From: Neocallimastix sp. 'constans'
Taxonomy: Eukaryota
DNA length: 64,000 bases
Assembly (NCBI GenBank): GCA_050613775.1
Contig: JBODTK010000127.1
Location: 186,001-250,000, forward strand
Direction of reading: 5' to 3'
The notes beneath the pieces are model-generated. The model had not been told where the DNA came from, did no database searches, and saw nothing but the letters and a program-made list of their open reading frames with translations. Positions 1 through 40,210 of this stretch are shown piece after piece (the first letter of the stretch is position 1; every line of letters begins with the position of its first letter). Position numbers and translations under genes: made by a program.

Positions 1-918
1 TTTCTTCTATAATGGCTTGTAGTTTGGGACAATGTTGTTGATAATGTCCAGGTTCCTTACAGAAGAAACAGGTTTTGACGGTAGAGTTTCTTGGTCCACG
101 TGTAAGGTTCTCCCTTTCACTTTCATCAGAAACTTTCCTATTGTCCCTGTTTTCATAAGTATTTCTTGGTGGTGAACTACGACTCTTATTATAATTATTA
201 TTATTATTGTTGGAAACATTTCTATTAGGACTTGGTACACGATGTAACCTCACAGCAAGTCTATCCACTTTTTCTGCAATTTCATAAGTTTGAAAGTGGT
301 ATATCATCAATTAAAGTTACTCTTTTCCAGGCCTCAATATTATTCTCAAGTGCATCAGCATAGTCCAAGATACTGATTTGTTTTTTTGTGAGTTTTATCT
401 AATTTTAAATATAATGTCCGATATCTTTTATTAAAATCCCTTACTTTTTCATTTCTACCAATTTTAAGAGCACGCAATTCCCTTAATAAGGTATTCTGAT
501 CTTCCTTTGCCCCATAGAATACTTCAAGAGCGTTGACGATCTCGACAAAAGAAGGATAACGGTTAGTTCTAACACTATCATTACTAGAACTACTTGAACT
601 AGTAGAGCTACTGGTGCTAGATCCTGACATCTCATCAGTATCAGTGGAACCATTCAATTCTACATCTTCTTCTGCTGTAGTAGCAGGTAGTTCTAATTCT
701 TGGATAATTTGTCTTGGTTCACCAGTAGACGTTAATAGGCAAGCAACAAAAATAGTTTTTGGATCAGTGATATTTTGTAATTGAATCCATAACTCAATTT
801 CAGAAGCCCAAGATTTTATATCCAAATGGTCCTTGTTTAATTTATCAACATATTTTAGTTCCTTTTTAAGATCTTTAAATGAAGGAACATTAGTAGTATC
901 ATTAGTAACTGAAGCCAT
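1..918 (-). pseudogene. gag: Gag of element A with two frameshifts (~385 and ~288)
   Basis: ATG at 918 (MASVTNDTT...). Capsid-like motif LRALKIGRNEKVRDFNKRY. Two frame changes are needed to reach the zinc knuckle; the first is in an A-run and could be a sequencing error. Confidence 0.75.
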
Positions 919-1258
919 ATTTCTTGAGTAGAAATTATACAGTAATATAGGTAAAATATTCAAAATAAAAATAATAATATTTTTTTTTTTTTTTTTTTTT
1001 TTTTATGTGTGTGTGAGTATGTTATAGATATATATAATATAGTATTAGAATTTATAAGTTTACAAACACTTCAGAGATTAAAAAAAAATTGGTAAGTTTA
1101 CAAACACTTCAGAGATTAAAAAAAATAAGTAAAAATTTTTTTTTTTTTTTTTTTTGTTTTTTTTTTTTTTTTTTTTGTTTTGTTTTATTTTGATATCCAA
1201 GATTAAAATATTTTATAATTATTGTTTATTAAATTATATCTTTATAGTTATTTATATG

Positions 1259-1466
1259 AGGTTCGAAATACACTTCGACCACCTACAAGAAATATATTTT
1301 TAGGTTCGAATAACACTCGACCACCTAAGGAAATTTTATATTATTGGTTCGAATACCTTTCGATCACCAATAGAAGATATAATTATATTAAGGTTATAAG
1401 CTCGAATGACACTTCGACCACTTATAATGATAATTATTTGGTTCAAGATACACCTCGACAACCAAA
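1259..1466. repeat. Five dispersed ~24-nt hairpin repeats (GGTTCGAA-N-TTCGACCACC) in the leader of A
   Basis: Copies at ~1260, 1303, 1346, 1399 and 1440, separated by AT-rich spacers. Confidence 0.85.
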
Positions 1467-1550
1467 TCAAACAGGTAGTAAAAAAAAAAATATAGTAGTC
1501 TTTCTTCTTTGGCTCAATTTCACTTAACCACAGAGTAAGAACAGTAAACA

Positions 1551-1597
<47 letters not shown>

Positions 1598-2466
1598 GAA
1601 TTCAGTACACTAGAATTTCTTATATGTAGCACGGAATAAATTAATTGCTAAATTAAAAAAATTAATATGGAAAATTTATAAATATTTCTTATATATATAT
1701 TATTAGCTTTATATTATTTTCGGATCCGCAGATTCTTTACAGGGCCGTTCGACCTCCACTATTGAACCGTCAGAATAGTGAATATAACAGAGTAGTGTGT
1801 GCCTGTACGAACACGGGACCTTACCACTTTTTCTATTCTGTTATCACTTGTATCACTAAACCTTATTCAATAATGCTCTACTACCTCCCTATGTGTAAAG
1901 CAATCCTTCTCCTATTCTCTAATATAAACGTCTAATTTTTATATCTATATATATCAACAGTCTTGGTATCAATATATAGATACTATATATATGTATATAT
2001 TTATAAATTTGAATTTATAATTTCAATTATAATATAATTTAGTCGATAATATAAATACGAATTACTATATACACTTAATTGTAACAAAGCCTTAAGCTAA
2101 GGAGTTTTTCATCCAACAGCCGCCGATTACAATAAGTTATAAATTGTATAAAAGTATTCTTATATTAATGAATAAATGTATAATATAATTAAATTATTAT
2201 TCTTACTAATTAGTACTTGACAGGAATAAATATTTCAAAGTTTTATATCACACTGTTTCTCTTGCACAAACAGAAATATAACAACTTTGTTGAATGAAAT
2301 TATTTATCCAACTAATATAGTAAGGACGTAGGTGCTACTTTAAATTATTAATATTTATTTATGTATATATTATATTTCTATATTATTGTAAAAAAAAATT
2401 TTTTTTTTTTTTTTTTAATTAAATAAAATTATTGTGTATGTTTTAATATTAGTTTTTAATTTTGAA

Positions 2467-2485
2467 ATCCCCGATATCTCCACCA
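2467..2485 (-). promoter_or_regulatory. Primer binding site of A (tRNA-Ala 3' end)
   Basis: Minus strand reads TGGTGGAGATATCGGGGAT, complementary to a ...UCUCCACCA tRNA-Ala end; 7 nt from the LTR. Confidence 0.75.
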
Positions 2486-2492
2486 AACTTTA

Positions 2493-3628
2493 TGTTATGG
2501 TTCGAGGAATTCAAAAAAAAAAATTATATAATATTAAAACACAAAAAAAATTTTATTCTTTCACAATAATTTTTATTTATTTATTATATTTTTATTTTAA
2601 TTTTTATTTTATTTTTATTATTATTTTTATTTATTTATTTTATTTTTATTTTATTTTTATTATTATTTTTATTTATTTATTTTATTTTTATTTTATTTTT
2701 ATTATTATTTTTATTTATTTATTTTATTTTTATTTTATTTTTATTATTATTTTTATTTATTTATTTTATTTTTATTTTATTTTTATTATTATTTTTATTT
2801 ATTTATTTTATTTTTATTTTATTTTTATTATTATTTTTATTTATTTATTTTATTTTTATTTTATTTTTATTATTATTTTTATTTATTTTTTTCTCTCCCC
2901 TAAAAAGGGGTTCCAAGGTAGTCAATTTATATCTTTTTGAAGATATAAAAGTAGCAAAGCCTCTGGAAGTAGTTGAAGAGATGGAAAAACAATAGATTTT
3001 TAAATCTTATTGATTATTTCCTTATTGTAATAAATAGAAATTTTATTATTTCCTAATATTCAAATTAACCAAAATAAATCTATAATATAAAAGATGCATT
3101 ATAGATAAGAATTAAACAAAAAAAAGAGAAGCAGTATTACAATAAAATTGAATACTTTAACTTAATTTTGATACTAATTTAATATGTAATCTTATATATT
3201 AATTTGAATGACATAATAGAAAATAAAATACATTTATTAATATATGAAAAATCTTTTACAATTTTAAATACAGGAAATTTTATTTTATTTATTTCTTTCA
3301 TTTCAATTATTTCTTAATTCGAAAGACAGAAATATTGATAAAGTTATTTAAGTTGTTTATATACAGGAATTATTCCTTATTTAGAAAAATAATACTAAAA
3401 GTAATTAGTACTATGTTATTGCTAAACTCTCATAAATTTAATTTACCTTTATAAGGAATGAACATAAATTTAAATTAAATTTTATGTATAAACTTAAATT
3501 TTCAGATCAAATAATATAGTAAAATTATTAATGTAAAGAATACATAAATTTATTAATATTTTAAAAATCACCTTGACTATATTAAAAGGTTTTTAATAAG
3601 AATCAATTTATTACTTCATTCTTTATCA
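2493..3628 (-). repeat. 5' LTR of A, containing a 42-bp tandem repeat at ~2570-2890
   Basis: TG start next to the PBS; CA end followed by GAGT. The partner LTR is outside the window, so the right end is inferred. Confidence 0.55.
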
Positions 3629-3632
3629 GAGT

Positions 3633-4650
3633 TGGTAGACTCGGGGTTGACACTTAGATATTTAAAATCAAGCAGGGGGGGACGGGTATTACCCTGCTTT
3701 GATTTTAAAAAAAATAAATCTTTCTTTATTAAAAATTATTTATTTTTTTTATTAATATAAAAGTTTTTTTTTTATTTAAAGTACACATATTTAATTTTTA
3801 AGAAATTGTTACAATATTTATATTTTTTTATAAATTTAAAGTATAATTAATTGTTTATAATTTAAGTAATTTTATAGAATTATTGAATTAATTTTATATC
3901 AATAATTCATTTTTGTTTTAATTTTTATAAATATAATAATATAATATTCAAATATAATTTAATTAAAAATAATTATAAAATAAATATATAGAAAATAGTT
4001 TTTACTATTTTCTTTAATATTTTTAAGTTAAATAAATTGTTTTTAAAGATTAATATAATAAATTTAATAATCTTTAATTATTTTAAATAATACTTGTAAT
4101 TATTTTCAAAATAAAATAAAATTTTTATAATATTTAATTAATAAATTTGATAATATTTAAATAATAATTTTTATAATAAGTAATAATTTTTAATAATAAT
4201 TTTTAATAATAAATTTAATTAATAATCTTAATAATTTTATAATAATATTTAATAGTTATAATAAATAAATTTTTATAATAATATTTAATAATTTTAATAA
4301 TTTTATAATATTAATAATTTATAATAATTTTTAGAATAATATTTAATTAATAATTTTAATAATTTTATAATAATTTTTATAATAATATTTAATTAATATT
4401 TTTAATAATTTAGTATCTTAAAAGTATAATTTTAATATTTACAATTGTATTTTAATATATACATATATTTAATAATATAACAATAAAGTGATTAATTAAA
4501 ATTTATTTACATTATTTACAAATTAAAATTAATTTATATCAAAATAAATTAAATTTACAATGAGGTTTAGGTTATGAAGAATATAGGAAAGTACAATTTA
4601 GTAAAGAATTATTAATAATAAAATAAAGGTTATTAATTCATTCTTTACCA
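3633..4650. mobile_element. Solo LTR 'X' (1018 bp)
   Basis: TGGTA...TACCA terminal inverted repeat flanked by GAGT on both sides (3629-3632, 4651-4654); no ORF; termini resemble the A LTR termini. Confidence 0.75.
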
Positions 4651-4887
4651 GAGTTGATAAATTTTAGAAATTATCTTAATTTTAATATAGAATTAAAAAG
4701 TGATAATTTCAATTTATTTTAATAATAACTGTATAAGTTATTTATGAATTAAAAATGTTTTATTAAAAATAACACTAAAAATTTGATTTATTAGAACACT
4801 TGTTTTCTAATATTTTATTTTATAAATCTTTTATTGAAATTTATTAAACATTATAAAAATTAAAAGTGATTATTAAAATTATAAAAT

Positions 4888-4919
<32 letters not shown>

Positions 4920-5437
4920 TACATGAAATATTTACAAGTATTTATATTTTTCTTTAAAATTAAACTATTTATAATTTATAAATAAAAAGAATAATTAAAT
5001 AAAATAAAAGTAATAAAATTAATAATAAAATAAATAATTAATAATAAAATAAATAAATTTGTTTATTATAAAAATAATTAAAAATATTTTGTTATTTAAA
5101 TTAATTAATTTTGTTATTATAAAAATATTATTTAATTATAAAATTAATTATAAAAATTATTATAAAACTAATTATAAAAATTAATTATTTTATTTTAAAT
5201 TTAATCTTAATATTTTTATTTTGAAAAATATATAATATTTCTTTCATATCTGAGTATTAATGTAATTTTTAAGTGTAATTTATTTGTTTTATTTAATTAA
5301 TTAATTAATTAATTTTTAAATTTTTTTTTTTTTTATTTTATTAAATTATTATTAAACTTGGCTAAGGTTAGTTTCGATTTTATGTATAATATATTTTTAA
5401 GATTTATTAATTTTGTTATTTATCAATTCATCGGCGG

Positions 5438-8400
5438 TTAAGATTGAACTTCGTCCCTTGAAGTTAATTCTTTTTCTGGAATGATATAAGGAAAAACATT
5501 TTTAATATGTACATTTCGATCAAGAAGTTTTCCTGTTTGAGGATCCTCGAGGACAACTGTATTGAATTTTTGTTTGTTAACTACTTTATATGGTCCATAA
5601 AAGTAAGGATTTAATTTACTTCTTCCAATTAATCTTATCATCACGTAATCTCCGGGTTTATAATTTTTCTTTAGTGATTTCGATAGTCCAATGCGATGTT
5701 CCCAATATTGATTTGCGTAATCCGAATATTCTGTTGCTTGTTTCACCCAATTCTGATGTCTTAGGAATCTTCTAAAAATATATTCTTCATCTGTTTCATT
5801 TGGATCTTTGTAAATATCTGGAAACATTACTTCTAATGGCCAGGTGTCTTTTCTCCCATAAAGTAATTCAAAGCTGCTAAATTTTGTTTTGGAATTTTTT
5901 GTTGTTCTAAGAGCCCAAAGTGCGGATGGTAAATATTCATCCCATTCACTTTCGTTTTCAACTAAGAGTCTTAAAATTTTCTCTACTTCTCTATTACGGT
6001 TTTCAATCATACCATTTGATTCTGGATGATGTGGAGATACAAAGTGCACCCATGACCCATAAAGATCGATCATCATTTTAGTAATATCTGATGCGAACGA
6101 ACTTCCATTATCTGTAACAATTATTTCTGGAGGACCATGTCTTGATATAACTTCAGTTAAAAATTTTATAACTTCTTCAGTCTTTGTGTTTGGAATGGCT
6201 TTAGCTTCAACCCATTTTGTGAAGTAGTCAACCAATGTAATAATATACATATTTCCATTTTTAGTAATTGGAAGAGGACCAATCGTATCAAGTCCAACAC
6301 GAGTAAATGGTTGTTCAACTGGTGTTACATTATCTGCAGTGTTTTTCGGGATTGGTTTTGGTCTACAAAGTTGACATTTTCTGCAAGATTTGATCCACAT
6401 CCTAACGTCATTCCAAATGCCGGGCCAATAATATGAATTTAGTATTCTGTTTACAGTTTTTTCGGCTCCTTCATGTCCTACAGAATGAGCACGATTAATT
6501 ATATCCTTTTTGTCTTCATCACGGTAGATAACTTTTAAATAAGTATCATCTTTCTTATAATATAAGGTGTTATCAACAACTTGATAATTCTTAGTGAAGT
6601 ATTTGATTATTCCTTCTGGTAGGTTTAAATCTTTTGGATTAAGATCAGCTAAAATTGTATTAATACATTTTATAATATCTTCGCTGTCTTTTGAAGGTAG
6701 TCTTGAAAGAGCGTCTGCGAAAACATTTTTCTTTCCTTTTTCATATTTTAGTTCAATTTTATATTTGTTAAATTCTTCTATCCAACGCATGTGTCTTCCT
6801 TTATTTGGAATAGTATTTTTGTAAAATCCTAAGAGTGGTTTATGATCCGTAATGAATATAGTTGGTTTCTTGTTACTAATTAAGTACTGACGGAATTTTT
6901 GGATTGCGTAATTAATAGCCAAACCTTCAAGATCAGTTACAGAGTAATTTCTTTCTGGAGGTGATAAAGTACGACTTACACAACAAATTGGGTGTTCTAA
7001 TTTGTCTTCCTCCACCTGTAAGAGGACAGCACCGATACCTTGAGTAGAGGCGTCTGTTCTAACAATAAATTCTTTATCAAAGTCAGGATAACATAATATA
7101 GGGTCAGACAATAAACAGTGACGTATGTCATCAAAAGCTTCATTATGATCAGAAGTCCATATATATGGTTGATTTTTCTTAAGTAGTTTAAAAAGAGAGT
7201 CAGCTCTTATAGAGAAATTTTGTATAAATTTTCTGTAATAACTAGCAAGACCAAGGAAGGACCTGAGCTCATTAACATTTTTGGGAGCTTCCCAAAGGGC
7301 TATACTTTGAACTTTAGAAGGAACAGTTTTTAAACCATTAGGGGTAAGAACATGACCTAAGACTTCAATTGATTCTTGGAAAAATTTGCATTTTTGAAGA
7401 TTGAGGGAGAGATTATACTTGGAGAATATTTCAAATACTTGTTTTAAATGTTCAAGATGTTCTTCAATAGAAGTAGAATATACAACTATGTCATCGATGT
7501 AAACGAATAAGCATTTACCAATGAGGGGTAAAAGGATTCTGTTCATCTCCCTTTGAAAGGTAGCGGGAGCATTAGTTAAACCGAAAGGCATAACAACAAA
7601 ATTATAGTTTCCAAATTTTGTTGTGAAAGAAGTTTTTTCGATATCTCTGGGATTCATTGGGATTTGGTGATAACCCGAATATAAGTCAAGGGCTGAAAAT
7701 ATTTTAGCACCTCTAACTGAAGAGACAAGTTCATCGATGAAAGGAAGTGCATATGAATCTTTAATAGTGATTTCATTAAGCCTTCTGTAATCTATACATA
7801 GTCTCCATTTCCCATTTTTCTTTCTGACTAATAAAACAGGAAATGACCAAGGAGAATGCGAGGGAATAATTAAGCCTTTATTAAGTAAGGATATAATTTC
7901 TTCTTTTAGAATATCAGAATGCTCTTTTGATAATTTATAAGGTTTTAGCTTAATAGGTTTTTCCGTAGTAGTAATTATTGAATGTGGTTCAAGGTTAGCA
8001 GTTGTTAGCTGACTTAGTGATGTTGCCATACAATTTTTGTATTGATTAATAAGATTTTCAAATTTTGATTTAACTTTATCTGGAACAGAATTGAGAATTT
8101 CGTTTAAGGTAGAGTTAAATTCACGAATTTCTTCATCTTCTTTAGATACATAAATAGCATTCATTAAGGGAATATTATTTGTGTTATTTGAGTTAATTAT
8201 CTGGATTATCTTTTTAAGACCTTTTCTTGTTTTCTGATATATGAAATCATCATCTGGATCAATAAGTAATCTATATTTCTTTTGGATACTTCTTCCAAAA
8301 ATAATATCAAAGTATGGATTATCTTGATTTATAATATAAAATTTTTCATAAATGTTGCAAGAATCATTAATGTTAATTTTCAATGGAACATAGTATTTAG

Positions 8401-9313
8401 TAGGTACTGTAGATCCATTTGCTAAAGTAATATTTTGTTCTATTATATCTTCTTCAATTTTCACATCATTAAATTTATTTAAACATCCTGTTGTTATAAC
8501 ATTTACATTTGCTCCTGTATCGTAAAGAATTTTTAAAAATACTTCTTTCGTTTTTCCAATGAAGATTGGAATAGGAATATTATAAAGAGAGCATAATACA
8601 TTTTCTATCTTTGGCTTACAACCTTGTCCTAATTCCTTCCTAAGAGTAGGACTAATAAAAAGTAATTGTGCAAGACTAATTTTCGGAAACAAGTTGTTGG
8701 CTTCCTTAATTATACTAAATTTATTACCTGATTCTAACATTTGTATATCTGTCATACTTCTTTTTCTGGTTTGTTTAGTTTGACTGAGAGATTGACTATG
8801 TGTTAGAACGTCTTTGGTATTATTTTCATTATTTATTTTTCTATGTTCATCAATTATGTTAATTACATTATTTTTATTATTTCCATTATTACTTTCATTA
8901 TTATTTCCATTATTGATTTCTGAATTATTTTTCATTTCAGAATCTTTTGTATTTTCCTTTGTATTATATGGTTCATCAATAATAATTTCCTCATTATCAT
9001 TTAATTCATGGTCATTTTGTTTTTCATTATTAAGTTCTTCACTTATTTTTCTTCTTCTTGTATTCCTAATTGCTTTCTTTTGTTGTTTAACTTTCTTAAT
9101 ATTTGGTTGATTGAGAATGGATGGTTTAACTATACTTTTATTATTTTGAGAGATTTTATTCTTATCCAAAGTACTTGTAGGCACTTTCTTTTTCTGGGCT
9201 ACATTAATTTGAGGGATTTGATTTTTTTCGTTATTAAGGTAATTTATTGATTGATTTGATGATGCAATTTTAGTTATTTTGGGAGATTGCTTACTCCCAT
9301 AATTTAATTTAAA
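5438..9313 (-). CDS. pol: Pol of B (PR-RT-RNaseH-IN), expressed by -1 frameshift
   Basis: LYDTGA protease, YIDD RT, RTDAS RNase H, HHCC and DDE integrase, GPY motif; Gypsy domain order. Confidence 0.95.
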   Translation of the reverse strand, partial: FKLNYGSKQSPKITKIASSNQSINYLNNEKNQIPQINVAQKKKVPTSTLDKNKISQNNKSIVKPSILNQPNIKKVKQQKKAIRNTRRRKISEELNNEKQNDHELNDNEEIIIDEPYNTKENTKDSEMKNNSEINNGNNNESNNGNNKNNVINIIDEHRKINNENNTKDVLTHSQSLSQTKQTRKRSMTDIQMLESGNKFSIIKEANNLFPKISLAQLLFISPTLRKELGQGCKPKIENVLCSLYNIPIPIFIGKTKEVFLKILYDTGANVNVITTGCLNKFNDVKIEEDIIEQNITLANGSTVPTKYYVPLKININDSCNIYEKFYIINQDNPYFDIIFGRSIQKKYRLLIDPDDDFIYQKTRKGLKKIIQIINSNNTNNIPLMNAIYVSKEDEEIREFNSTLNEILNSVPDKVKSKFENLINQYKNCMATSLSQLTTANLEPHSIITTTEKPIKLKPYKLSKEHSDILKEEIISLLNKGLIIPSHSPWSFPVLLVRKKNGKWRLCIDYRRLNEITIKDSYALPFIDELVSSVRGAKIFSALDLYSGYHQIPMNPRDIEKTSFTTKFGNYNFVVMPFGLTNAPATFQREMNRILLPLIGKCLFVYIDDIVVYSTSIEEHLEHLKQVFEIFSKYNLSLNLQKCKFFQESIEVLGHVLTPNGLKTVPSKVQSIALWEAPKNVNELRSFLGLASYYRKFIQNFSIRADSLFKLLKKNQPYIWTSDHNEAFDDIRHCLLSDPILCYPDFDKEFIVRTDASTQGIGAVLLQVEEDKLEHPICCVSRTLSPPERNYSVTDLEGLAINYAIQKFRQYLISNKKPTIFITDHKPLLGFYKNTIPNKGRHMRWIEEFNKYKIELKYEKGKKNVFADALSRLPSKDSEDIIKCINTILADLNPKDLNLPEGIIKYFTKNYQVVDNTLYYKKDDTYLKVIYRDEDKKDIINRAHSVGHEGAEKTVNRILNSYYWPGIWNDVRMWIKSCRKCQLCRPKPIPKNTADNVTPVEQPFTRVGLDTIGPLPITKNGNMYIITLVDYFTKWVEAKAIPNTKTEEVIKFLTEVISRHGPPEIIVTDNGSSFASDITKMMIDLYGSWVHFVSPHHPESNGMIENRNREVEKILRLLVENESEWDEYLPSALWALRTTKNSKTKFSSFELLYGRKDTWPLEVMFPDIYKDPNETDEEYIFRRFLRHQNWVKQATEYSDYANQYWEHRIGLSKSLKKNYKPGDYVMIRLIGRSKLNPYFYGPYKVVNKQKFNTVVLEDPQTGKLLDRNVHIKNVFPYIIPEKELTSRDEVQS

Positions 9314-10197
9314 CACTCTTCTTCTAATTCAGGGCAATCATCTTTAACATGACCTATTCTTTGACAATTTAAGCATACATTGATTTTTAAATCAGCAAGT
9401 TTCTGAGTTATTTCTTGTAATTCATCATCTTGAAGTTGTGTAGGTTTCAATGTGACTTTTCTATTTTCAACATTTTGATTAATATAATTATGAGTAGGTT
9501 TTATATTATTATTATATTTTTGGTAATTATTGTTGTGACTATTATTTATATTATTATTCTTATTATTAAATGAATTATTTTTATTATAAGTACTTGTATA
9601 ATATGTTCCATAATTATTTTGAGTGTTAGATTTTATTTTTCTTTTGTTTGATTCTCCTTTATCTTTAGACCTATTTGATTCTACTAATTTATATATCTTC
9701 TCCTTTTTAGACGTTATTTGCATTGCATCTTTTAAGTTTTGCGGTTCTACTTCTAATAAAGCCTCATAGGTTTTAGTTAAAGTCCGAAATGCATTAATAT
9801 AATAAGAGATTATAACTTCCTTATTTAAATCAATTCTAATTTTATTTAAAAGTGTTTCAAACCTTATGTTGAATTCTGCAACACTTTCACCTTTCTTAAT
9901 TGTAGCTGTTGAAAGTTCTAATAACCTTGAATTTTTAGGAAGAGGACCCTTGTAATGTTCCTGTAATTTACTTATAATGGTATCATATTTATCTGGGGTA
10001 GTTTTATTTAATGAATTTATTACTATCTTTCTTGCAATACCAGTAGTAATTGAAATTAAACATTCTATCTTTTCTTCTTCGTCAATTTTATTGGAATTAC
10101 ACCAACGAGTATATGAGAAATTCCAATCATCAAATTCTACAGTCGGTTGACCTAATATAGGAATTCTGTTGAAATTAATTGATTTTAAATCGGACAT
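9304..10197 (-). CDS. gag: Gag of B
   Basis: 297-aa ORF upstream of pol with CLNCQRIGHVKDDC zinc knuckle. Confidence 0.9.
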   Translation of the reverse strand: MSDLKSINFNRIPILGQPTVEFDDWNFSYTRWCNSNKIDEEEKIECLISITTGIARKIVINSLNKTTPDKYDTIISKLQEHYKGPLPKNSRLLELSTATIKKGESVAEFNIRFETLLNKIRIDLNKEVIISYYINAFRTLTKTYEALLEVEPQNLKDAMQITSKKEKIYKLVESNRSKDKGESNKRKIKSNTQNNYGTYYTSTYNKNNSFNNKNNNINNSHNNNYQKYNNNIKPTHNYINQNVENRKVTLKPTQLQDDELQEITQKLADLKINVCLNCQRIGHVKDDCPELEEECLN

Positions 10198-10403
10198 TTT
10201 ACTCTGGAATTTAGAAGTATTTTTGTTTTCTCTTTAATATAATTTATATACTTTATTTTATATAATAATTTATTCGCTAACAAAATATTTATATATTTAA
10301 ATTTAATTATTTAATCAAATTTTTAATTAATTAAAATTTTATATATTCAATTTCAATATATTTATTCATTCACTTATTATACGTTTCTTTAATTAGTTAT
10401 TAT

Positions 10404-10461
<58 letters not shown>

Positions 10462-11175
10462 TTATTTATTTAAGAACCTCGAATTATATATGTAGCAGTA
10501 ATAGATTTTCTTGGCGTTCTGATTATATTTTCGACCTCATTAGACTCTACTTACTCTCTTGTGCTGTTTTCATTCGACTGGTTATAAAGTTTTCCGTTTC
10601 TCTGGATCTCTCACCAAAGTATCGATATAACCAATCAATTACTCTCCAGTACAATTTTCAGTTCTGTCTAACCTCTACTCTCTATAATCAGGACCCAATA
10701 CTCTCTCTTGCTACTCTAATTTATATCTTATTAATCGCGACCTAGAGTCAAGCTCCAATAGTTTATGATTAATAAAATATAAACCTATATAATTCTTTAA
10801 AATTAAAATAGAATTTTTTTTTTTTTTTTTTTTTTTCAAAATATTATCTATCGTTTCCTTTCCTTATATTTGTCGTTCTTTTCCTATTTATTTATTATTT
10901 TCTTCTTAATATAAATGGCTTTCTTCCCAATATTAATTTAATTTCTATTTATTATATTATTATTATATTATTATATATATATACATATATATATATATTT
11001 TATTTTTAATTTTAAATTATGAATTTTTATACTAGTTCATACTCTAGTTTTAATTTTTAATTATTATTATATAATAAATATTATTTATCCTTTATTTTAT
11101 TATTATGAATTTTTATACTAGTTCATACTCTAGTGTTAATAAATAATACTTATTAATAATAAGTTAGCTGCCTCT

Positions 11176-11191
11176 CCGGTTCGAAGGACCA
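11176..11191 (-). promoter_or_regulatory. PBS of B (tRNA-Tyr 3' end)
   Basis: TGGTCCTTCGAACCGG, complementary to the eukaryotic tRNA-Tyr end (...CCGGCUCGAAGGACCA); 1 nt from the LTR. Confidence 0.85.
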
Positions 11192-11425
11192 CTGATAAAT
11201 TTTAGAAATTATCTTAATTTTAATATAGAATTAAAAAGTGATAATTTCAATTTATTTTAATAATAACTGTATAAGTTATTTATGAATTAAAAATGTTTTA
11301 TTAAAAATAACACTAAAAATTTGATTTATTAGAACACTTGTTTTCTAATATTTTATTTTATAAATCTTTTATTGAAATTTATTAAACATTATAAAAATTA
11401 AAAGTGATTATTAAAATTATAAAAT

Positions 11426-11457
<32 letters not shown>

Positions 11458-12681
11458 TACATGAAATATTTACAAGTATTTATATTTTTCTTTAAAATTA
11501 AACTATTTATAATTTATAAATAAAAAGAATAATTAAATAAAATAAAAGTAATAAAATTAATAATAAAATAAATAATTAATAATAAAATAAATAAATTTGT
11601 TTATTATAAAAATAATTAAAAATATTTTGTTATTTAAATTAATTAATTTTGTTATTATAAAAATATTATTTAATTATAAAATTAATTATAAAAATTATTA
11701 TAAAACTAATTATAAAAATTAATTATTTTATTTTAAATTTAATCTTAATATTTTTATTTTGAAAAATATATAATATTTCTTTCATATCTGAGTATTAATG
11801 TAATTTTTAAGTGTAATTTATTTGTTTTATTTAATTAATTAATTAATTAATTTTTAAATTTTTTTTTTTTTTATTTTATTAAATTATTATTAAACTTGGC
11901 TAAGGTTAGTTTCGATTTTATGTATAATATATTTTTAAGATTTATTAATTTTGTTATTTATCAGAGTGATATGGGCACAGATCACACACAATATTTTAAA
12001 AACACAATATTAAATATTATAAATAAATTTTTATTAGTTTAAAAGTATTTTATAAATTTTTATTTTATTTTATTGTCCTTTTCAAAAGAAAGAAAATTTC
12101 TTCCTTTTATAGTTTTTTACATGAATCTTGAATTGAACATTAACATATACATTTATTTATATTATTCTATTATGAATGTTATTTTAATATTAATATATTT
12201 TAAAATTAACCTATTCTAAAGTATCTATTTTAAAATATAGTTGTATAATTATTAATGATTTATTTATATTTAAAATTTTAACTATCTATTCTAATAATGT
12301 TTTAATTTATCAATTAATATATAATTTAATATTCTTGTAAATTATTAATATTATATTCTCATAAAGTTTATTATTGTAAAAAGAATACAGAAAATAATAA
12401 TCTATTTTAGAGAAAACAATAAAAATAATAGTTAGTATTGTCAATCGATTTAATTTTATACAGAATTAAATATTTCTGTATTTATTTTATTAAAAACAAT
12501 TTATAGATAATTATTCTTATTATAAATAATTTTATTATAAATAAATTTTTTTTTTATTATAACTATTTTAATTTTAAATAATTTCATTATTATAAATATT
12601 TTATATTTTTTTTCTTTTTTATCATTTTTATGTATGCTTATTTGAAATAAATAAGCTAGTTCCGGATCAGAATCTCCCCAC

Positions 12682-15600
12682 TTAACTATGGACTTCGTCC
12701 CTTGAAGTCTCATTGTGCCATGTATAATAATGAATTAGGTTTTTCTTATGGACATTTCTATCAGCAATTTCACCAGTAAGTGGGTCACATAATATTGCTG
12801 TATTAAATTCCATCTTGACAATTTTCATAGGTCCAATATAATAAGGATCGAGTTTTTTGCGGGAAAAATTACGGATTAAAACTAAATCTCCTTTTTCAAA
12901 AGTAGATTTCATTGAATCTTTTTGTCTTCGTCTATTTTCCCATAATTTATTAGCATTATTAATATTATTAGTAGCTTCTAAAATCCATCTCCAATGAGTA
13001 GTAAATTTCCTAATTAAATATTCTTCTGTTGTTTCATGAATATGTCTATCATTTATATCTAACGATAACTCGAAAGGTTGAAGATCGGTTCTACCATAAA
13101 GAAGTTCGAAACTACTGAATTTAGTAACTTCACTTTTGCATGTTCTAAGGGCCCAAAGTGCACTTGGTAGAATTTCATCCCAATCCTTCTGATTGTTTCC
13201 CAATAACCTTAAATATTTTCCAATTTCGCGATTTCGGTTTTCAACTTGGCCATTACTTTCAGGGTGATAGGTGCTTGTGTAATGTACATAAACACCATAT
13301 AAATCTAAGAATCCTTTCGTTGTGTCTGAAGTAAATTGAGGTCCATTATCGGTAATTAATACTTCCGGAATACCATGACGTGAAAATACTCTTGTTAAAA
13401 ATTTTATTACATCATTTGATTCAATAGTTATGAGTGGTTCAGCTTCCACCCACTTAGTGAAATAATCAACAAGTACTATAATATATTTGTTTTTTGATTT
13501 GGTTTCAGGGAGGGGACCAATAATATCTAGACCAACTCGACGAAAAGGGGATTCTGGTGTAGTAGCATGATTTTCAGTTCCTATATTAGCTGGTTGAGGT
13601 CTATTCAACTGGCATTGATGACATGTTTTAACTAGAATTTCCACATCTTTGCTCATATTTTCCCAATAGTAATTCTTCTTCAATCTATTATAGGTTTTAT
13701 GAAAACCTTCATGTCCTACGTTATGTGCGGATAATAATAGTTCAATTTTTTCTTCTTTATCGTCAATAACTTTCCTTAATTTATTGTTTTCTTTGTAATA
13801 TTTTACATCATCAATAGTTACAATTTTTCTTTTAAGGAATTCTTTAATTGATTTGCTTAAGTTTATTTCATTATTATTTGTATTAATGGAATTCGTAATT
13901 AGAATTTTTTGATTTTCTTCTTTATTTAATGGTAATCGTGAAAGAGCATCGGCGACCACATTTTTCTTTCCAGGTTCATATTTGACAATGACATTTAGCA
14001 TGCTCAAGGTAACAACCCATCTCATTTGTCTAGCGTTATTAGGTTCTTTGTTATTGTTAAATAACCCGACTAGGGGTTTATGATCGGTAAAAAGAATTGT
14101 TTTAAAATTATTACTATTAAGGTATGATTTAAATTTTTTTGTACAATAGAAAGCAGCAGTTCCTTCGATATCTGTTACGCTATAATTTAATTCATATTTC
14201 TTTAATGTACGACTAACATAAAATATAGGGTGTTCAACTCCTTCATTATCTTTTTGGATTAATACACCACCCAACCCGTCATATGATGCATCTGTTCTTA
14301 TTATAAATTGTTTATCGAAATTTGGAAAACTAAGTATTGGAGCTTTTACTAATTTTTCTTTTAGTTCACGGAAAGCATTTTCTTCTGTCTGGGTCCATTG
14401 AAATTTTGTATTTTTCTTCTGTAATTTATATAATGGTTGAGCAATGCTTGAATAATTTTTAATAAACTTTCTGTAATACCCCACGGCACCCAAAAAAGAA
14501 CGTAATTGAGTTAAATTAGTTGGTGATTTCATAATTTTAATTGAATCAACTTTCTTCTGTACTGTTTTAATGCCTTCAGTAGTTAGAAGATGACCTAAGA
14601 CTTGAACTTCTTTTTTCAAAAAGTGACATTTTGAGAGATTAACTTTAAGACCATTTTCTTTGATAATATTGAAAATATCTTGGAGATTCTTTAAGTGTTC
14701 TTCCAAGCTGCATGAAAAGATTACTAAATCGTCCATGTAGACAAACATACATTTTCCTATTAAAGGTAAAAATATTCTATTCATCTCCCTTTGGAAAGTA
14801 GCGGGAGCATTACATAATCCGAATGGCATTACTTTAAAATTATAATTTCCATAAATGGTAGTAAAACATGTTTTATCCCTATCTTCCTTTTTCATTGGAA
14901 TCTGGTGGAATCCGGAAAATAGATCAAGAGTAGACAGAAATTTTACATCATTACCTACTGAGTATAATATTTCTTCAATATATGGTAATGGGTAGGCATC
15001 CTTCTCTGTGACATCATTGAGCTTCCGATAGTCAACGCACATTCTCCATGTACCATTATTTTTAGGTACAAGAACAACTGGAAAAGACCAAGAAGATTGA
15101 GAAGGCTCGATGAGTCCATTATCTCGGAGTTTTTGAATTTCTTCTCTTAAGATCTCCATTTTCTTTTTGTCAGCAATTCTATATTTCCTCTGCTTAATAG
15201 GTTTTTGATTTGGATTTAACTTAATTTCATGAGCTAATAGTTTCGATTTTCCCAAATCATCAGTGCTGATAGCTAGTAATTCTTCGTTGTTTTCTAATAA
15301 TTGTTTAAGGGCTTGTCTTTTGTCTTCATCTGTTCCCTCAATGATTTCTTCTATTAATTCTTTCTTAGATTTATTCTTATTATCATTAATAAAGATCTTC
15401 TCATATTGATCTTGGGTACATAATAGATATTCTTTAGCTGCTTCATCATTTTCAATATAATTATTATTTAAGAAATTTTCATTTTTCGAATTTATTACAT
15501 TATTTTTATTTATATCAATAAAATCATCATTTGTATTTAAGTTTATATTTATATTAATATCAAAATTTTCATTTGAGTCAATATTATTATTATTATTAGT

Positions 15601-16837
15601 TAAATTTTTATTTTTATCTAAATCAATATCTTCATTTGAATTAAGAGAATTTTTATTGTTATTCAGTTTAATATTTTTGTTGAAGTTCTCATTTTTATTT
15701 ATGCCATTATTTAAACCATTTTCTTTATTGAAATTATTACTTTTATTCAAGTTCTTATTTTTATTCGAATTCTTATTTTTATTTAAACTATTATTTTTGT
15801 TTAAATCATTGTTTTTATTATCACAATATAATTCCTTACTATTATTTCCTTTTAAATAATTTATTTCATTTACATTATCGTTGGAATTTAGATCATTAAA
15901 ATCGTTATTAAATTCCTCGTAACGAAGGGTAGAAACATTTTCAATACTTCCAATTTTTTTAATATCGTCTAATTTTTGATATAAATTGTTGTCTGTAAAA
16001 TCGATAATCAATTTCATATGTCTCAAAGTATCAACACCAATTAATACATTAAATATATCATCCTTTTCAATGAGTCTGAAAATTTCTTTAAGAGTAATAT
16101 CTCCTATAGTTATTTCAATCTCAAAAAGTTTGGAGACTATGGTTTCATTATTGAATGCTTGAAGAAAAGTTTCTTTTATCTGTGATAAAGGACTTATATT
16201 TATGTTATTTTTTATTAGAAAACTTTTAGTAATCAAGTTAATGCTAGAACATGAATCTAAGTATATAATTGTATCAACTCCTTCAACTTTTCCATGAGTT
16301 TTTACTATTTTATCTTGTTTAATAGTTGATAATATATCTTCTTCGTTATAAATGGCTTCATTAATTGTAGTCATCGTTGTTAGCTTAAGAGATTTAGACA
16401 ATTCTGTTCTTAATTTAGGATTCAAATCTAGTAATTGTCCAATTGTTATGTTGGCTACAGTATCTCCTACATCATGTACTATGTCATATCGTTTTTGATC
16501 ACCTATTATTTTTACTTTTTTTATTATATTATTATTGATATCATTATTTTCTTGTTTCTTTTGGCTAGGTAGTTCTATCTCTTTGGCTAATTCAATAATT
16601 TCTTTTGCCCTTTGTTTTTTACCTTTTTGTTTTGTTTTCTGAATAGAAGGTTGACTAATAATAGATGGATCTAAAATTTTTAAGGATTCAGTATTCCCAA
16701 GAATATTTGAATTATAAATGTCGTTGGTATTATTATTGTCTTTATTACTAAAACTAATCGTACTATTATTATTATAATTATCAGTATTATTATTATTATA
16801 ATTATTATTATTATAATTATCAGTATTATTATTATTA

Positions 16838-16872
<35 letters not shown>

Positions 16873-16881
16873 TTTATTATA

Positions 16882-16914
<33 letters not shown>

Positions 16915-17172
16915 TTTATCATTATTAACGTTATCCATTTCCATTTCCATCGTATTATTATTAGCAGGAATTTTAATAGGTTGCGGGTTTGATAATAGGT
17001 TTTCTTTAATCGTTTTTTGATGATAAGGTGTATTATCAATTTTATTTTTTGTTTTTCTAATGGCCGCAGCAACAATTTCCTGTTCAGAAGGGTCTTGTAT
17101 AGTATGAATTATTGGTTGATGTGAATAGGTTTGATTTCTGGGAGTATTCCTTCTCCCATTAATTAGTTTAAA
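12682..17172 (-). CDS. pol: Pol of C (PR-RT-RNaseH-IN) with Asn-rich linkers, -1 frameshift
   Basis: Frame is open from the slippery site (17166-17172) through ORF 12682..16950. YLDSCS protease, YMDD RT, RTDAS, integrase core. Confidence 0.93.
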
Positions 17173-18410
17173 GGCTTATTGTTATTATTAATATTATTGA
17201 TACTAAGCTTTCCTTCTTCTTCCATTATGGCTAATTCACGATAAGAATATGGACAATCTTGTAATTTATGTCCGAATTGATTGCATTTAAAGCATTTTAA
17301 TGTTTTACTATTATTATTAATATAATTGTTATTATTGACATTATTATAATTATTATTTTTAGCTTGTTTATTCAAATTCCTATCATTGTTTACATTGTTT
17401 GTGAGGAATCTTTCGTTATTAATATTATTATTGCTATTACTATTATATCTCGTATTATTGAAGTTATTAATTTTATTAAGATTATTATCATTTTTCAAAT
17501 AATTATTATTGAAATTGTTCCTATAGTAACTGTCAAAACTATTAAAATTATTATTATAATAATTGTTATAAGGGTCATATTGAGAATTGTTATTGTTTAA
17601 TCCGTGATTAAATCGGTTATTGTATTCATTATTATTATAAAAATTAGAATAAGTATTATAATAATTATTATACTTTCTATTATATCTATAATTCATATTT
17701 CCATTGTTATTAGGAATATTGAAGGATTTATTATTAGTATAAAGGACGGGATTTATGTTATTATCAAAAGTGTCATAATAAGGATTATTGTGTAAGAAAT
17801 TAAAAGGAGAGCTATTGGGCATATAATAAGGATTGTATTGAAAACTATTATTTTCATTTCCCAGAGCCATTATTATGTTATTCGGAATGTTTGGTGCTTC
17901 AGTTGCATTTTCGGCTAATTCAGCAATTTGGAGTGCCTCTTCAAGTGTATCTGGTTGAGCAGTAATTACTTGGGTTCTGGCAAAAGGTCTACTTGATATA
18001 GAATTACAATAATCTTTAATTGTGATAAATTCCTGGGATTCAGGGTTTAATGAATTATGTAAGTTATTATATCTCCAATTAAAATCCCTAATAGTTTCGT
18101 TTCTTCTTATTTTGAGTGCCTTTAAATTAAAGCATTTTTCTTGTTGGGTAACCTCCAGATAATCTTCAATAGCAGTTTTCATTTCGTTAATATTGGGATA
18201 AGTAACATCATCACCATCTATAGTCTTAAGGTCTTCGAGTATACCCTTAAGACGTCCCTGAACGCACTCTTTCGCCCACGCGAAAATCCTTTTTGGTTCC
18301 TCAATGTTAGCAAGTTCCATAATTCTTTGGAACTCCTCGGCCCAACTTTCTATATCCCTATCATGATTTCCTAATCTAGGAATCATACGGGAAATTTCAC
18401 TGATTTTCAT
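17163..18410 (-). CDS. gag: Gag of C
   Basis: 415 aa; CFKCNQFGHKLQDC knuckle; N/Y-rich low-complexity region. Confidence 0.9.
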   Translation of the reverse strand: MKISEISRMIPRLGNHDRDIESWAEEFQRIMELANIEEPKRIFAWAKECVQGRLKGILEDLKTIDGDDVTYPNINEMKTAIEDYLEVTQQEKCFNLKALKIRRNETIRDFNWRYNNLHNSLNPESQEFITIKDYCNSISSRPFARTQVITAQPDTLEEALQIAELAENATEAPNIPNNIIMALGNENNSFQYNPYYMPNSSPFNFLHNNPYYDTFDNNINPVLYTNNKSFNIPNNNGNMNYRYNRKYNNYYNTYSNFYNNNEYNNRFNHGLNNNNSQYDPYNNYYNNNFNSFDSYYRNNFNNNYLKNDNNLNKINNFNNTRYNSNSNNNINNERFLTNNVNNDRNLNKQAKNNNYNNVNNNNYINNNSKTLKCFKCNQFGHKLQDCPYSYRELAIMEEEGKLSINNINNNNKPLN

Positions 18411-18615
18411 CTTAAAATAAAATTTTTTTTTTTTTTTTTTTATAAATAAAAGTTATTTAATAATATAAATTTGAGAAAATATATATATATATATATTTTA
18501 TAAAAAGGTTATTTAATAATATAAAATTGAATATATATATTTTTTTATAAAAAAAAAAATATTTAATAATATAAAATTGAGGAAAAAAAATTATTTAATA
18601 ATATAAAATTGAGAA

Positions 18616-18671
<56 letters not shown>

Positions 18672-18709
18672 AAAATAATTATTTAATAATATAAAAATAA
18701 AAAAAATTT

Positions 18710-18752
<43 letters not shown>

Positions 18753-18834
18753 AAAATATTATTTAAAAATATAAAGATTGTGTAACGATATCTTATGCCA
18801 CACAAAATATTTTTATGAGAAAACTAATAAAAAA

Positions 18835-18875
<41 letters not shown>

Positions 18876-19092
18876 AAAAATATAAACGAAAGATTTAATA
18901 AAAAATAAAAAAAAATAAATTAAAATAAGTTTCCTCTGAAACTTTTACAAAAGTAATAAAAATAATAAATTTAAGTTTCCTCTGAAACTTCTTTAAAAAA
19001 AATAAAATCTTTGTTTCCTCTGAAACAAAATATAAAAAAATCTATTCTTTATAATATTAATTTATGTGTTTATTTCATATTTTTGTGTGTGC

Positions 19093-19109
19093 GCCCGGAT
19101 TCTCCACCA
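19093..19109 (-). promoter_or_regulatory. PBS of C (tRNA-Ala)
   Basis: TGGTGGAGAATCCGGGC, 5 nt from the LTR; the same PBS occurs in the second copy at ~60785-60801. Confidence 0.85.

Positions 19110-38643: not shown

Positions 38644-40210
<1,567 letters not shown>

What the first reader, a model, noticed from the sequence alone, without database searches (positions are those of the whole stretch)
1621..10714. Covarying structured RNA motif shared by the 5' leaders of divergent elements A and B
Seen: both leaders contain a GC-richer island (A ~1620-2340, B ~10470-10790) with an identical two-stranded core. On the sense strand this is AGUAGAG (A 1876-1882, B 10673-10679) opposite GAGGUCGAA (A 1748-1756, B 10530-10538). 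The adjoining helix has different sequence but still pairs (A CAUUAUUGAA/UUCAAUAGUG, B GUUAGAC/GUCUAAU). Both also have UGCUACAUAUA (A 1621-1631, B 10487-10497) pairing with an upstream GUAGCA (A 2332-2338, B 10709-10714). Known: AGUA/GAA is the loop E / bulged-G motif. A and B differ in primer tRNA, LTR and Gag. Inference: an undescribed structured cis-RNA (IRES, packaging/dimerisation element or ribozyme-like fold).
Basis: partly seen in the sequence, partly recalled or inferred. Interest (0 to 1): 0.78.

Follow-up and report, generated by a model that had tools for sequence, protein, structure and literature searches.

The report
Shared folded RNA in retrotransposon leaders
Two distantly related jumping genes in a very AT-rich gut microbe carry the same 16-letter internal loop held between stems that differ in sequence yet still pair; this is likely an undescribed RNA signal, predicted to help package the element's RNA, but only two examples could be found.

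Summary
Two minus-strand Ty3/gypsy elements share an identical two-stranded loop, AGUAGAG / GAGGUCGAA, in their long 5' leaders. Element A is cut by the window start. Element B spans 4655-11963.

- **Helices.** The inner helix P2 is 11 bp in A and 7 bp in B. Six of the 7 comparable pairs are changed on both sides and still pair. An outer helix P1 and a closing helix P0 (GUAGCA/UGCUAC) appear in every minimum-energy fold.
- **Controls.** None of 123 random two-word matches had an adjacent helix longer than 4 bp. None of 150 shuffles reached the candidate's information score.
- **Strand.** The sense strand folds about 11-12 kcal/mol better than the antisense. Both leaders are depleted of AUGs on the sense strand only.
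- **Novelty.** Rfam has no match, and four literature searches found no description.

The covariation rests on two sequences. Both families are internally uniform, and no third family could be retrieved. A model built from A alone did not find B.

The likeliest role is a cis-acting genomic-RNA signal, most likely a Gag/nucleocapsid docking (packaging) site. The AUG depletion argues against an IRES. The function is untested.

The parts
1620..2340 (-). Element A leader island, a GC-richer folded domain
   Evidence: It is 26% GC against 6-21% in the flanks. The 764-nt fold has -165 kcal/mol and z -3.75, closed by P0 and containing the core.
2332..2338 (-). A P0 5' strand, GUAGCAC
   Evidence: It pairs with 1626-1632 in the minimum-energy fold of the whole island.
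1626..1632 (-). A P0 3' strand, GUGCUAC. It lies within the shared word UGCUACAUAUA at 1621-1631.
1887..1892 (-). A P1 5' strand, AUAGGG
   Evidence: It pairs with CCCUGU at 1739-1744 in the folds.
1876..1882 (-). A loop strand 1, AGUAGAG, identical in B
1865..1875 (-). A P2 5' strand, CAUUAUUGAAU
   Evidence: It forms an 11-bp helix directly next to the loop words.
1757..1767 (-). A P2 3' strand, GUUCAAUAGUG
1748..1756 (-). A loop strand 2, GAGGUCGAA, identical in B
1739..1744 (-). A P1 3' strand, CCCUGU
2469..2494 (-). A putative primer-binding site, TGGTGGAGATATCGGGGA...
   Evidence: Read from the sequence. It shares TGGTGGAGA with element C's site next to its LTR end. This is inferred, because A's LTR is not delimited.
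355..917 (-). A gag, N-terminal part. The frame breaks near 310-355 and continues to the window start with a CCHC knuckle.
10479..10799 (-). Element B leader island
   Evidence: It is 33% GC against 10-12% in the flanks. Its fold has -89.2 kcal/mol and z -5.9. The same fold is kept in the whole 967-nt leader.
10709..10714 (-). B P0 5' strand, GUAGCA
   Evidence: It pairs with 10492-10497.
10683..10691 (-). B P1 5' strand, CUGAUUAUA
   Evidence: It forms a 9-bp helix with 10519-10527. Of 123 random controls, 0 had an outer helix of 9 bp or more.
10673..10679 (-). B loop strand 1, AGUAGAG
10666..10672 (-). B P2 5' strand, GUUAGAC
10539..10545 (-). B P2 3' strand, GUCUAAU
10530..10538 (-). B loop strand 2, GAGGUCGAA
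10519..10527 (-). B P1 3' strand, UAUAAUCAG
10492..10497 (-). B P0 3' strand, UGCUAC. It lies within the shared word UGCUACAUAUA at 10487-10497.
11193..11963 (-). B 5' LTR. The 3' LTR is at 4655-5424.
   Evidence: The repeat pair is 100% identical over the 300 nt shown. The ends are TG...CA and the 4-bp target duplication is GAGT.
11167..11191 (-). B putative primer-binding site, TGGTCCTTCGAACCGGAGAGG...
   Evidence: It lies one base after the LTR end. This is inferred.
9304..10197 (-). B gag, 297 aa with a CCHC knuckle. The pol ORF is at 5438-9316.

Best explanation
The 5' leaders of two Ty3/gypsy retrotransposons share a sense-strand RNA domain: a closing helix (P0), an outer helix (P1), a two-stranded loop identical in both (AGUAGAG / GAGGUCGAA) and an inner helix (P2) that differs in sequence but still pairs. 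It likely acts in cis on the element's genomic RNA, most likely as a docking site for Gag/nucleocapsid (a packaging signal).

Shown:
- The words, the helices and their compensated differences.
- The preference for the sense strand.
- The position in B between the primer-binding site and gag. In A the same position is inferred.
- The absence of any Rfam family.

Inferred:
- The loop is a purine-rich platform with unpaired G residues. It can be drawn as a sarcin-ricin-type AGUA/GAA module, then two pairs (GA/UC), then a 1x4 loop (G/GAGG).
- The CCHC zinc knuckles carried by both Gags would recognise it, so that full-length RNA is selected for particles.
- The surrounding helices only need to present the loop, which is why they are free to covary.
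For: Anatomy and position.
- B is a complete element with identical LTRs. Its island lies between the putative primer-binding site and the gag AUG.
- In A the island lies between the gag AUG at 917 and a putative primer-binding site at 2469-2494.

Conserved loop with compensated helix.
- 16 of 16 loop letters are identical.
- In P2, 6 of the 7 comparable pairs are changed on both sides and 1 on one side, and all still pair.

Controls: with the figures given in the observation check.

Stability of the fold.
- P0, P1 and P2 appear in the minimum-energy folds of the cores, the islands and the whole B leader. The z-scores are -2.6 (A core), -5.9 (B core), -5.9 (B island), -3.75 (A island) and -8.4 (whole B leader).

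Sense strand.
- The G-U pairs make the sense strand fold better than the antisense: -45.8 against -33.3 kcal/mol in B and -42.9 against -31.9 in A.
- Upstream AUGs are depleted on the sense strand only. A has 1 against 24.2 +/- 3.5 expected (0 of 500 shuffles as low). B has 6 against 13.1 +/- 2.3 (fraction 0.002). The antisense control is not depleted.

Gag.
- Both Gags carry CCHC knuckles.
- They have no direct BLASTP similarity, yet both hit the same Gag ORFs elsewhere. The loop is therefore far better conserved than the proteins.

Other points.
- AGUA/GAA is the canonical sarcin-ricin sequence (PMC1865062 passages).
- The B island stands uncut in a 354-letter contig of an RNA library. That library may contain DNA.
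- Structured packaging signals between the primer-binding site and gag, and nucleocapsid binding to exposed G-rich loops, are established retrovirus biology. I recall this; it was not checked here.
Against: - There are only two sequences, so no statistical covariation test (R-scape) is possible.
- Within each family the island is uniform in the runs laid, so there is no independent variation.
- No third family was found. The window holds none. The leaders of related elements on L127, L128, L130 and L164 lack it. Four MAGs that hold such contigs have none.
- A covariance model built from A alone did not recover B.
- A crude look-elsewhere statistic is met in 30 of 300 shuffles.
- Nothing here tests binding or packaging.
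- No palindromic dimerisation loop was seen.
- Very different Gags sharing one exact loop could point to a host factor instead.
- The sarcin-ricin drawing rests on sequence only.
Confidence: 0.4

Rival explanations
1. Host-factor docking element. The invariant loop would bind a cellular protein for nuclear export, stability or localisation of the unspliced RNA, in the manner of a constitutive transport element. The helices would serve only as scaffolds.
For: The loop is letter-perfect between elements whose Gags show no direct similarity. This fits a common, slowly evolving host partner better than fast-evolving Gag. Sarcin-ricin-type modules are typical protein-binding platforms (PMC1865062 abstract and passages, plus recalled knowledge).
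Against: Related elements with short leaders lack the motif, so it is not a general requirement. Known transport elements lie near the 3' end and have paired symmetric loops (recalled).
Confidence: 0.15
2. Translation-control element. The folded island would act as an IRES, a ribosome-shunt structure or a scanning barrier that sets Gag output from a 1-1.5 kb leader.
For: The leaders are very long, 967 and 1551 nt. They contain a very stable domain followed by a 42-60-nt A run.
Against: Upstream AUGs are strongly depleted on the sense strand through the whole leader, island included. The A island has 1 AUG against 12.9 expected. This is the signature of linear scanning. It is not expected of an IRES or of a bypassed shunt region, which tolerate AUGs (recalled knowledge of picornavirus and caulimovirus leaders).
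Confidence: 0.12
3. Reverse-transcription or dimerisation helper. GAGGUCGAA would pair in cis or in trans with UUCGAACC words near the primer-binding site (B) or in the five hairpin repeats (A), or would contact the primer.
For: On the minus strand UUCGAACC occurs only four times in the window. Three copies are in A's leader repeats and one is inside B's putative primer-binding site. GGUCGAA occurs five times, four of them in the two leaders. In A's repeats the two words pair with each other in hairpins.
Against: The pairing needs a bulge and is short. The two elements have different primer-binding sites. In every fold the loop strands stay local. No covariation supports a long-range contact.
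Confidence: 0.1
4. Neutral remnant or coincidence. A and B would have inherited a leader patch from a common ancestor, or share words by chance, and AT-rich sequence readily forms hairpins, so no function attaches to the fold.
For: There are only two instances. Each shared word alone is near chance expectation for the search space. The crude statistic is met in 30 of 300 shuffles. The model built from A did not find B.
Against: Neutral decay would not keep 16 of 16 loop letters while changing 6 of 7 helix pairs on both sides and preserving pairing. The controls also argue against it, as do the sense-strand energy advantage and the outer helices in both elements.
Confidence: 0.15
5. Self-cleaving ribozyme or other catalytic fold in the leader.
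For: The architecture is a conserved internal loop between two helices. Ribozymes are known in other retroelements (recalled).
Against: No Rfam ribozyme family matches, even at E up to 10. A contig of an RNA library runs uncut through the core (weak evidence). There is no second conserved loop for docking.
Confidence: 0.03

Closest known systems
Packaging and dimerisation structures in retroviral and LTR-retrotransposon leaders (HIV-1 psi stem-loops, MLV psi, Ty1/Ty3 5' structures). Recalled, not fetched.
   Same: It lies between the primer-binding site and gag. It has stable stem-loops presenting unpaired purine/G-rich letters. Both elements encode CCHC nucleocapsid knuckles.
   Different: There is no sequence or Rfam relation. 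No palindromic kissing loop was seen. The leaders are far longer and more AT-rich. Binding and packaging are untested.
Sarcin-ricin / loop E (bulged-G) motif
   Same: The letters AGUA and GAA lie on opposite strands with a short Watson-Crick step (GA/UC) on the hairpin side, as in the canonical AGUA/GAA form (PMC1865062 passages; the layout is recalled).
   Different: This rests on sequence only. Extra loop letters (G against GAGG, and 3-4 against 2-3 letters next to P1) are not part of the motif. There are no 3D or probing data.
Constitutive transport element of simian type D retroviruses (recalled)
   Same: It also has invariant internal-loop letters flanked by helices that vary, and it is read by a host protein.
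   Different: That element lies near the 3' end and has two symmetric loops. No sequence likeness was seen. This was not tested beyond Rfam.
Ribozymes of retroelements (hammerhead in retrozymes/Penelope-like elements, HDV-like in R2). Recalled.
   Same: They are structured RNA in a retroelement transcript.
   Different: No match to any Rfam ribozyme model. The core letters differ.

Membership tests
Any Rfam 15 family | Score at or above the family's gathering threshold | tested here: not met
   There were 0 matches in the whole window. At E up to 10 the only hit was a chance msr match of 18.4 bits against a threshold of 52 in A, outside the core. B had none.
Sarcin-ricin / loop E motif | AGUA on one strand opposite GAA on the other, next to a Watson-Crick pair | tested here: met
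   The sequence can be drawn as AGUA-GA...UC-GAA in both A and B. AGUA/GAA is the canonical sequence.
Sarcin-ricin / loop E motif | Bulged-G triple and the non-Watson-Crick pair geometry | not testable with these tools
   This needs chemical probing or a solved structure.
Retroelement packaging signal | Lies in the leader between the primer-binding site and gag on the genomic RNA strand | tested here: met
   B is firm. A is likely, because its primer-binding site is putative.
Retroelement packaging signal | Specific binding by Gag/nucleocapsid and a requirement for encapsidation | not testable with these tools
   No assay was possible. Only the presence of CCHC knuckles is shown.
Conserved structured RNA family (covariation standard) | Significant covariation over many independent sequences | tested here: inconclusive
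   With two sequences, 6 of 7 P2 pairs are doubly changed. There is no variation within the families and no third family.
IRES | Leader tolerant of upstream AUGs, with cap-independent entry | tested here: not met
   Upstream AUGs are strongly depleted on the sense strand, within the island too. Activity itself was not assayed.
Self-cleaving ribozymes (hammerhead, HDV-like, hairpin, twister, pistol, hatchet and others in Rfam) | Match to the family's model or core letters | tested here: not met

The most novel reading that the evidence does not exclude
This is a new RNA family of gut-microbe Ty3/gypsy elements. A sarcin-ricin-type purine loop is clamped by freely covarying helices and is kept letter-perfect across lineages whose capsid proteins have diverged beyond direct recognition. 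It is kept because it is the handle by which nucleocapsid or a host protein picks the full-length RNA out of an extremely AT-rich transcriptome.
Probability: 0.3. Interest if true: 0.55.

Novelty: new variant of a known kind. Interest (0 to 1): 0.4.

Why it matters
Cis-acting RNA signals of LTR retrotransposons are known in detail for only a few model elements, and I found none described for this kind of very AT-rich gut eukaryote. An invariant loop between covarying helices gives a compact target for testing how such elements select their genomic RNA. The target is about 160-180 nt and can be mutated.

The near-absence of upstream AUGs in leaders of 1-1.5 kb is a separate clue. It suggests that these mRNAs are scanned from the cap through a very stable fold. 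That is a question in its own right for translation in AT-rich genomes.

Tried and rejected
**Own genome.** None is held.

**Earlier findings.** Three look-ups returned nothing.

**Alignment and covariance model.**
- MAFFT could not put the two cores in register, so no A+B model could be built and the count of structure pairs was not run.
- I built a model from A alone by aligning the same reference with itself. It found only A with default filters. With filters off, 28 matches were listed at E up to 10. B appeared only as a 6.2-bit interior match.

**Searches for a third family.**
- A degenerate scan of the window found only A and B.
- The B Gag query on IMG/VR gave 0 pattern matches.
- The B Gag query on JGI metagenome contigs confirmed 4 of 73 candidates. 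One is a 99% B copy with only 330 nt upstream of gag (L121). Three match the zinc knuckle only.
- A pol alignment of 3 sequences on genome contigs gave 9 loci. Seven of them (L125-L131) are AT-rich gypsy contigs binned into gut MAGs.
- The same alignment on IMG/VR gave 3 loci of 42-48% GC.
- None of these carries the motif.
- The leaders of L127, L128, L130 and L164 were read or folded, and none has the motif.
- Pattern, blastn and Gag-protein searches of the four MAGs gave only AT-rich noise or Gag ORFs with short or truncated leaders.
- Short-read contigs break at the long A runs beside the island, so wider MAG searches were judged futile and were not run.

**Public runs.**
- B's island is identical in X1, X12 and X13.
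- A's island is identical in X12 and X14, and X9 covers it in short pieces.
- Minor variants occur only at 2290, 2294 and 2312, outside the core.
- The RNA library X1 gave no cover of A's island at 1705-2325.

**Ideas considered and dropped.**
- A MITE or foldback insertion flanked by a GAG duplication. Single contigs span the islands, with no separate contigs of the inner hairpin among the listed pieces, and the two interiors are unrelated.
- A 5S rRNA, SRP or snRNA capture. Rfam shows nothing.
- A leader intron. The splice-site likeness is poor.
- A kink-turn. The letters do not fit.

**Literature.** Four searches found nothing on such a motif: 12 papers hold both terms, 11 listed, listing only; 2 papers; listing only; passages of PMC3362945, where the loop E mention is an enterovirus reference. 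One search was rejected for term syntax.
Full report
**Setting.** The window is a nest of retroelements in a very AT-rich eukaryote, with 8-38% GC per kilobase. It holds several Ty3/gypsy elements, two copia elements and a MULE transposase. It has no tRNA genes and no Rfam match. Public runs that hold the stretch are labelled animal feces or sheep gut metagenomes, or carry four coded organism names. Related AT-rich gypsy contigs sit mis-binned in gut MAGs. I infer an anaerobic gut eukaryote, probably a gut fungus. This was not tested.

**The two elements.** Element B is complete and lies on the minus strand at 4655-11963.
- Its LTRs are at 4655-5424 and 11193-11963. They are 100% identical over the 300 nt shown, with TG...CA ends and a GAGT target duplication.
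- A putative primer-binding site starts one base after the 5' LTR.
- The leader is 967 nt. gag runs 10197-9304 and carries a CCHC knuckle. pol runs 9316-5438.

Element A is cut by the window start.
- Its gag begins at 917 on the minus strand, has a frame break near 310-355 and carries a CCHC knuckle.
- A putative primer-binding site at 2469-2494 gives a leader of 1551 nt. A's LTR cannot be delimited.

The two Gags show no direct BLASTP similarity. Both hit the same Gag ORFs on other contigs, so they are remote homologues.

The layout is the same in both elements:

P0 (GUAGCA/UGCUAC), then variable sequence, then P1, 3-4 nt, AGUAGAG, P2, a long irregular hairpin (97 nt in A, 120 nt in B), P2', GAGGUCGAA, 2-3 nt, P1', then variable sequence, then P0' within UGCUACAUAUA, followed by a 42-60-nt A run.

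- P2 is 11 bp in A and 7 bp in B. Counting from the loop, the pairs are C-G, A-U, U-G, U-A, A-U, U-A, U-A in A and G-U, U-A, U-A, A-U, G-C, A-U, C-G in B. Six pairs are changed on both sides and one on one side, and all remain pairs.
- The 16 loop letters are identical.
- P1 is AUAGGG/CCCUGU in A and CUGAUUAUA/UAUAAUCAG in B.
- P0 does not vary, so it says nothing about covariation. It does close the minimum-energy fold of both islands and of the whole B leader.

**Is it more than chance?**
- The two-word pattern at this spacing is common in random DNA. Of 123 such matches, 0 had an adjacent inner helix of 5 bp or more, 14 had an outer helix of 6 bp or more within 8 nt, and 0 had one of 9 bp or more.
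- In the window's own sequence an adjacent helix of 7 bp or more occurs at a rate of 2.4e-3, and one of 11 bp or more at 1.1e-4.
With a plain count, helices of 7 bp or more in both leaders turn up in 30 of 300 shuffles, because AT-only words abound.
- With an information-weighted score the candidate has 59.6 bits. The best score per shuffle averages 41.3 (sd 2.7, maximum 57.5), and 0 of 150 shuffles reach the candidate.
- Shared words of 7 letters or more with at least 3 G/C number 9, against 3.1 expected (1% of 300 shuffles).

I conclude that the shared fold is real. The claim rests on a conjunction of features in two sequences.

**Strand.** The G-U pairs favour the sense strand.
- The B core folds at -45.8 kcal/mol (z -5.9) against -33.3 (z -4.5) for the antisense.
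- The A core folds at -42.9 (z -2.6) against -31.9 (z -1.4).

Independently, both leaders are depleted of AUG on the sense strand. A has 1 against 24.2 +/- 3.5 expected, and 0 of 500 shuffles are as low. B has 6 against 13.1 +/- 2.3, a fraction of 0.002. The antisense control (CAT) is not depleted. The A island alone has 1 AUG against 12.9 expected. So the leaders, islands included, behave as scanned 5' UTRs.

**Search for more examples.**
- The window holds no further copy, even with mismatches allowed.
- Each family is uniform in the public runs. B's island is identical in three runs, one of them an RNA library that may contain DNA. A's is identical in two runs and is covered by short pieces in a third, with minor variants only at 2290, 2294 and 2312.
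- Gypsy contigs from four gut MAGs, with pol 41-77% identical in the best segment to the first query sequence, have short or truncated leaders without the motif.
- The motif is not universal in this clade. It goes with the two very long leaders.

**What it resembles.**
- The loop can be drawn as AGUA opposite GAA, closed on the hairpin side by two pairs (GA/UC), followed by a 1x4 loop (G against GAGG) before P2. AGUA/GAA is the canonical sarcin-ricin sequence (passages of PMC1865062). The geometry cannot be tested here.
- No Rfam family matches, ribozymes included.
- Four literature searches found no description of such a leader motif. I saw listings and passages only, and subscription journals are not covered.

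**Mechanism.** The position between the primer-binding site and gag, the sense-strand fold, the exposed purine/G-rich loop and the CCHC knuckles in both Gags fit a genomic-RNA recognition (packaging) element best. My confidence in this is about 0.4.
- A host-factor docking element is the main rival (0.15). An exact loop shared by very different Gags fits a host partner well.
- Translation control (0.12) is weakened by the AUG depletion.
- A role in priming or dimerisation through GGUCGAA/UUCGAACC pairing is possible (0.1). These words are nearly confined to the two leaders.
- A neutral remnant or coincidence (0.15) and a ribozyme (0.03) remain.

**Verdict.** Its function is untested, and the covariation cannot be assessed statistically with two sequences. 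It is a new variant of a known kind, namely cis-acting leader RNA of LTR retroelements, and is of moderate interest.

Noticed in passing
window 918-2468 and 10198-11164, minus strand: Upstream AUGs are strongly depleted in both long leaders on the sense strand only. A has 1 against about 24 expected and B has 6 against about 13. B's six AUGs open short uORFs, and one AUG sits at the P2'/loop junction (10540).
   Followed up: partly
window 1259-1470, minus strand: A's leader holds about five tandem 43-nt units (Tandem Repeats Finder scores three, at 1259-1387). In the fold, each forms a hairpin in which GGUCGA(A) pairs with UUCGA(A)CC. The outer stems differ between units but still pair (UUGGU/ACCAA, AUAAG/CUUAU, UAGGU/ACCUA). 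The units share GGUCGAA with the conserved loop.
   Followed up: partly
window 10558-10705, minus strand: GAGAGUA occurs four times inside B's island and only once elsewhere on that strand of the window. It may be a repeated purine binding word.
   Followed up: no
window 11167-11191, minus strand: B's putative primer-binding site, TGGTCCTTCGAACC..., places a T-loop-like TTCGAA only 3 nt from the TGG. This does not fit the 3' end of a canonical tRNA, so the primer is unclear.
   Followed up: no
window 4641-4654 and 11964-11970: B is inserted, with a GAGT duplication, at the very end of the LTR of the neighbouring element C (11967-19414). The flank TTCATTCTTTAYCAGAG recurs at 3610-3627, next to a TGGTAGACTCGGGG site and a G-rich hairpin at 3669-3701. 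Insertions are therefore nested.
   Followed up: partly
window 2569-2892: A 42-nt (126-nt) AT-only tandem array of about 7.7 copies lies upstream of A's putative primer-binding site.
   Followed up: no
L125-L131, L133 (genome contigs): AT-rich eukaryotic gypsy retrotransposon contigs are binned into prokaryotic gut MAGs titled Methanosphaera stadtmanae, Erysipelotrichaceae bacterium, Bacilli bacterium and Brevinema sp. This looks like contamination of those MAGs.
   Followed up: partly
L132 (genome contigs): A gypsy-like pol, 32% identical in the best segment, lies inside a chromosome-level record of a Wolbachia endosymbiont of a flea beetle. It could be a host-derived insertion or an assembly artefact.
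   Followed up: no
window 38644-39378 (minus) and 43072-44496 (minus): A fragment of an Old Yellow Enzyme-type NADH:flavin oxidoreductase gene and a MULE transposase with a FLYWCH finger lie among the retroelements.
   Followed up: no
window 18411-19100, minus strand: Element C's leader lacks the island. It carries three copies of a GUUUCAGAGGAAAC hairpin word and several A runs of 28-61 nt.
   Followed up: no
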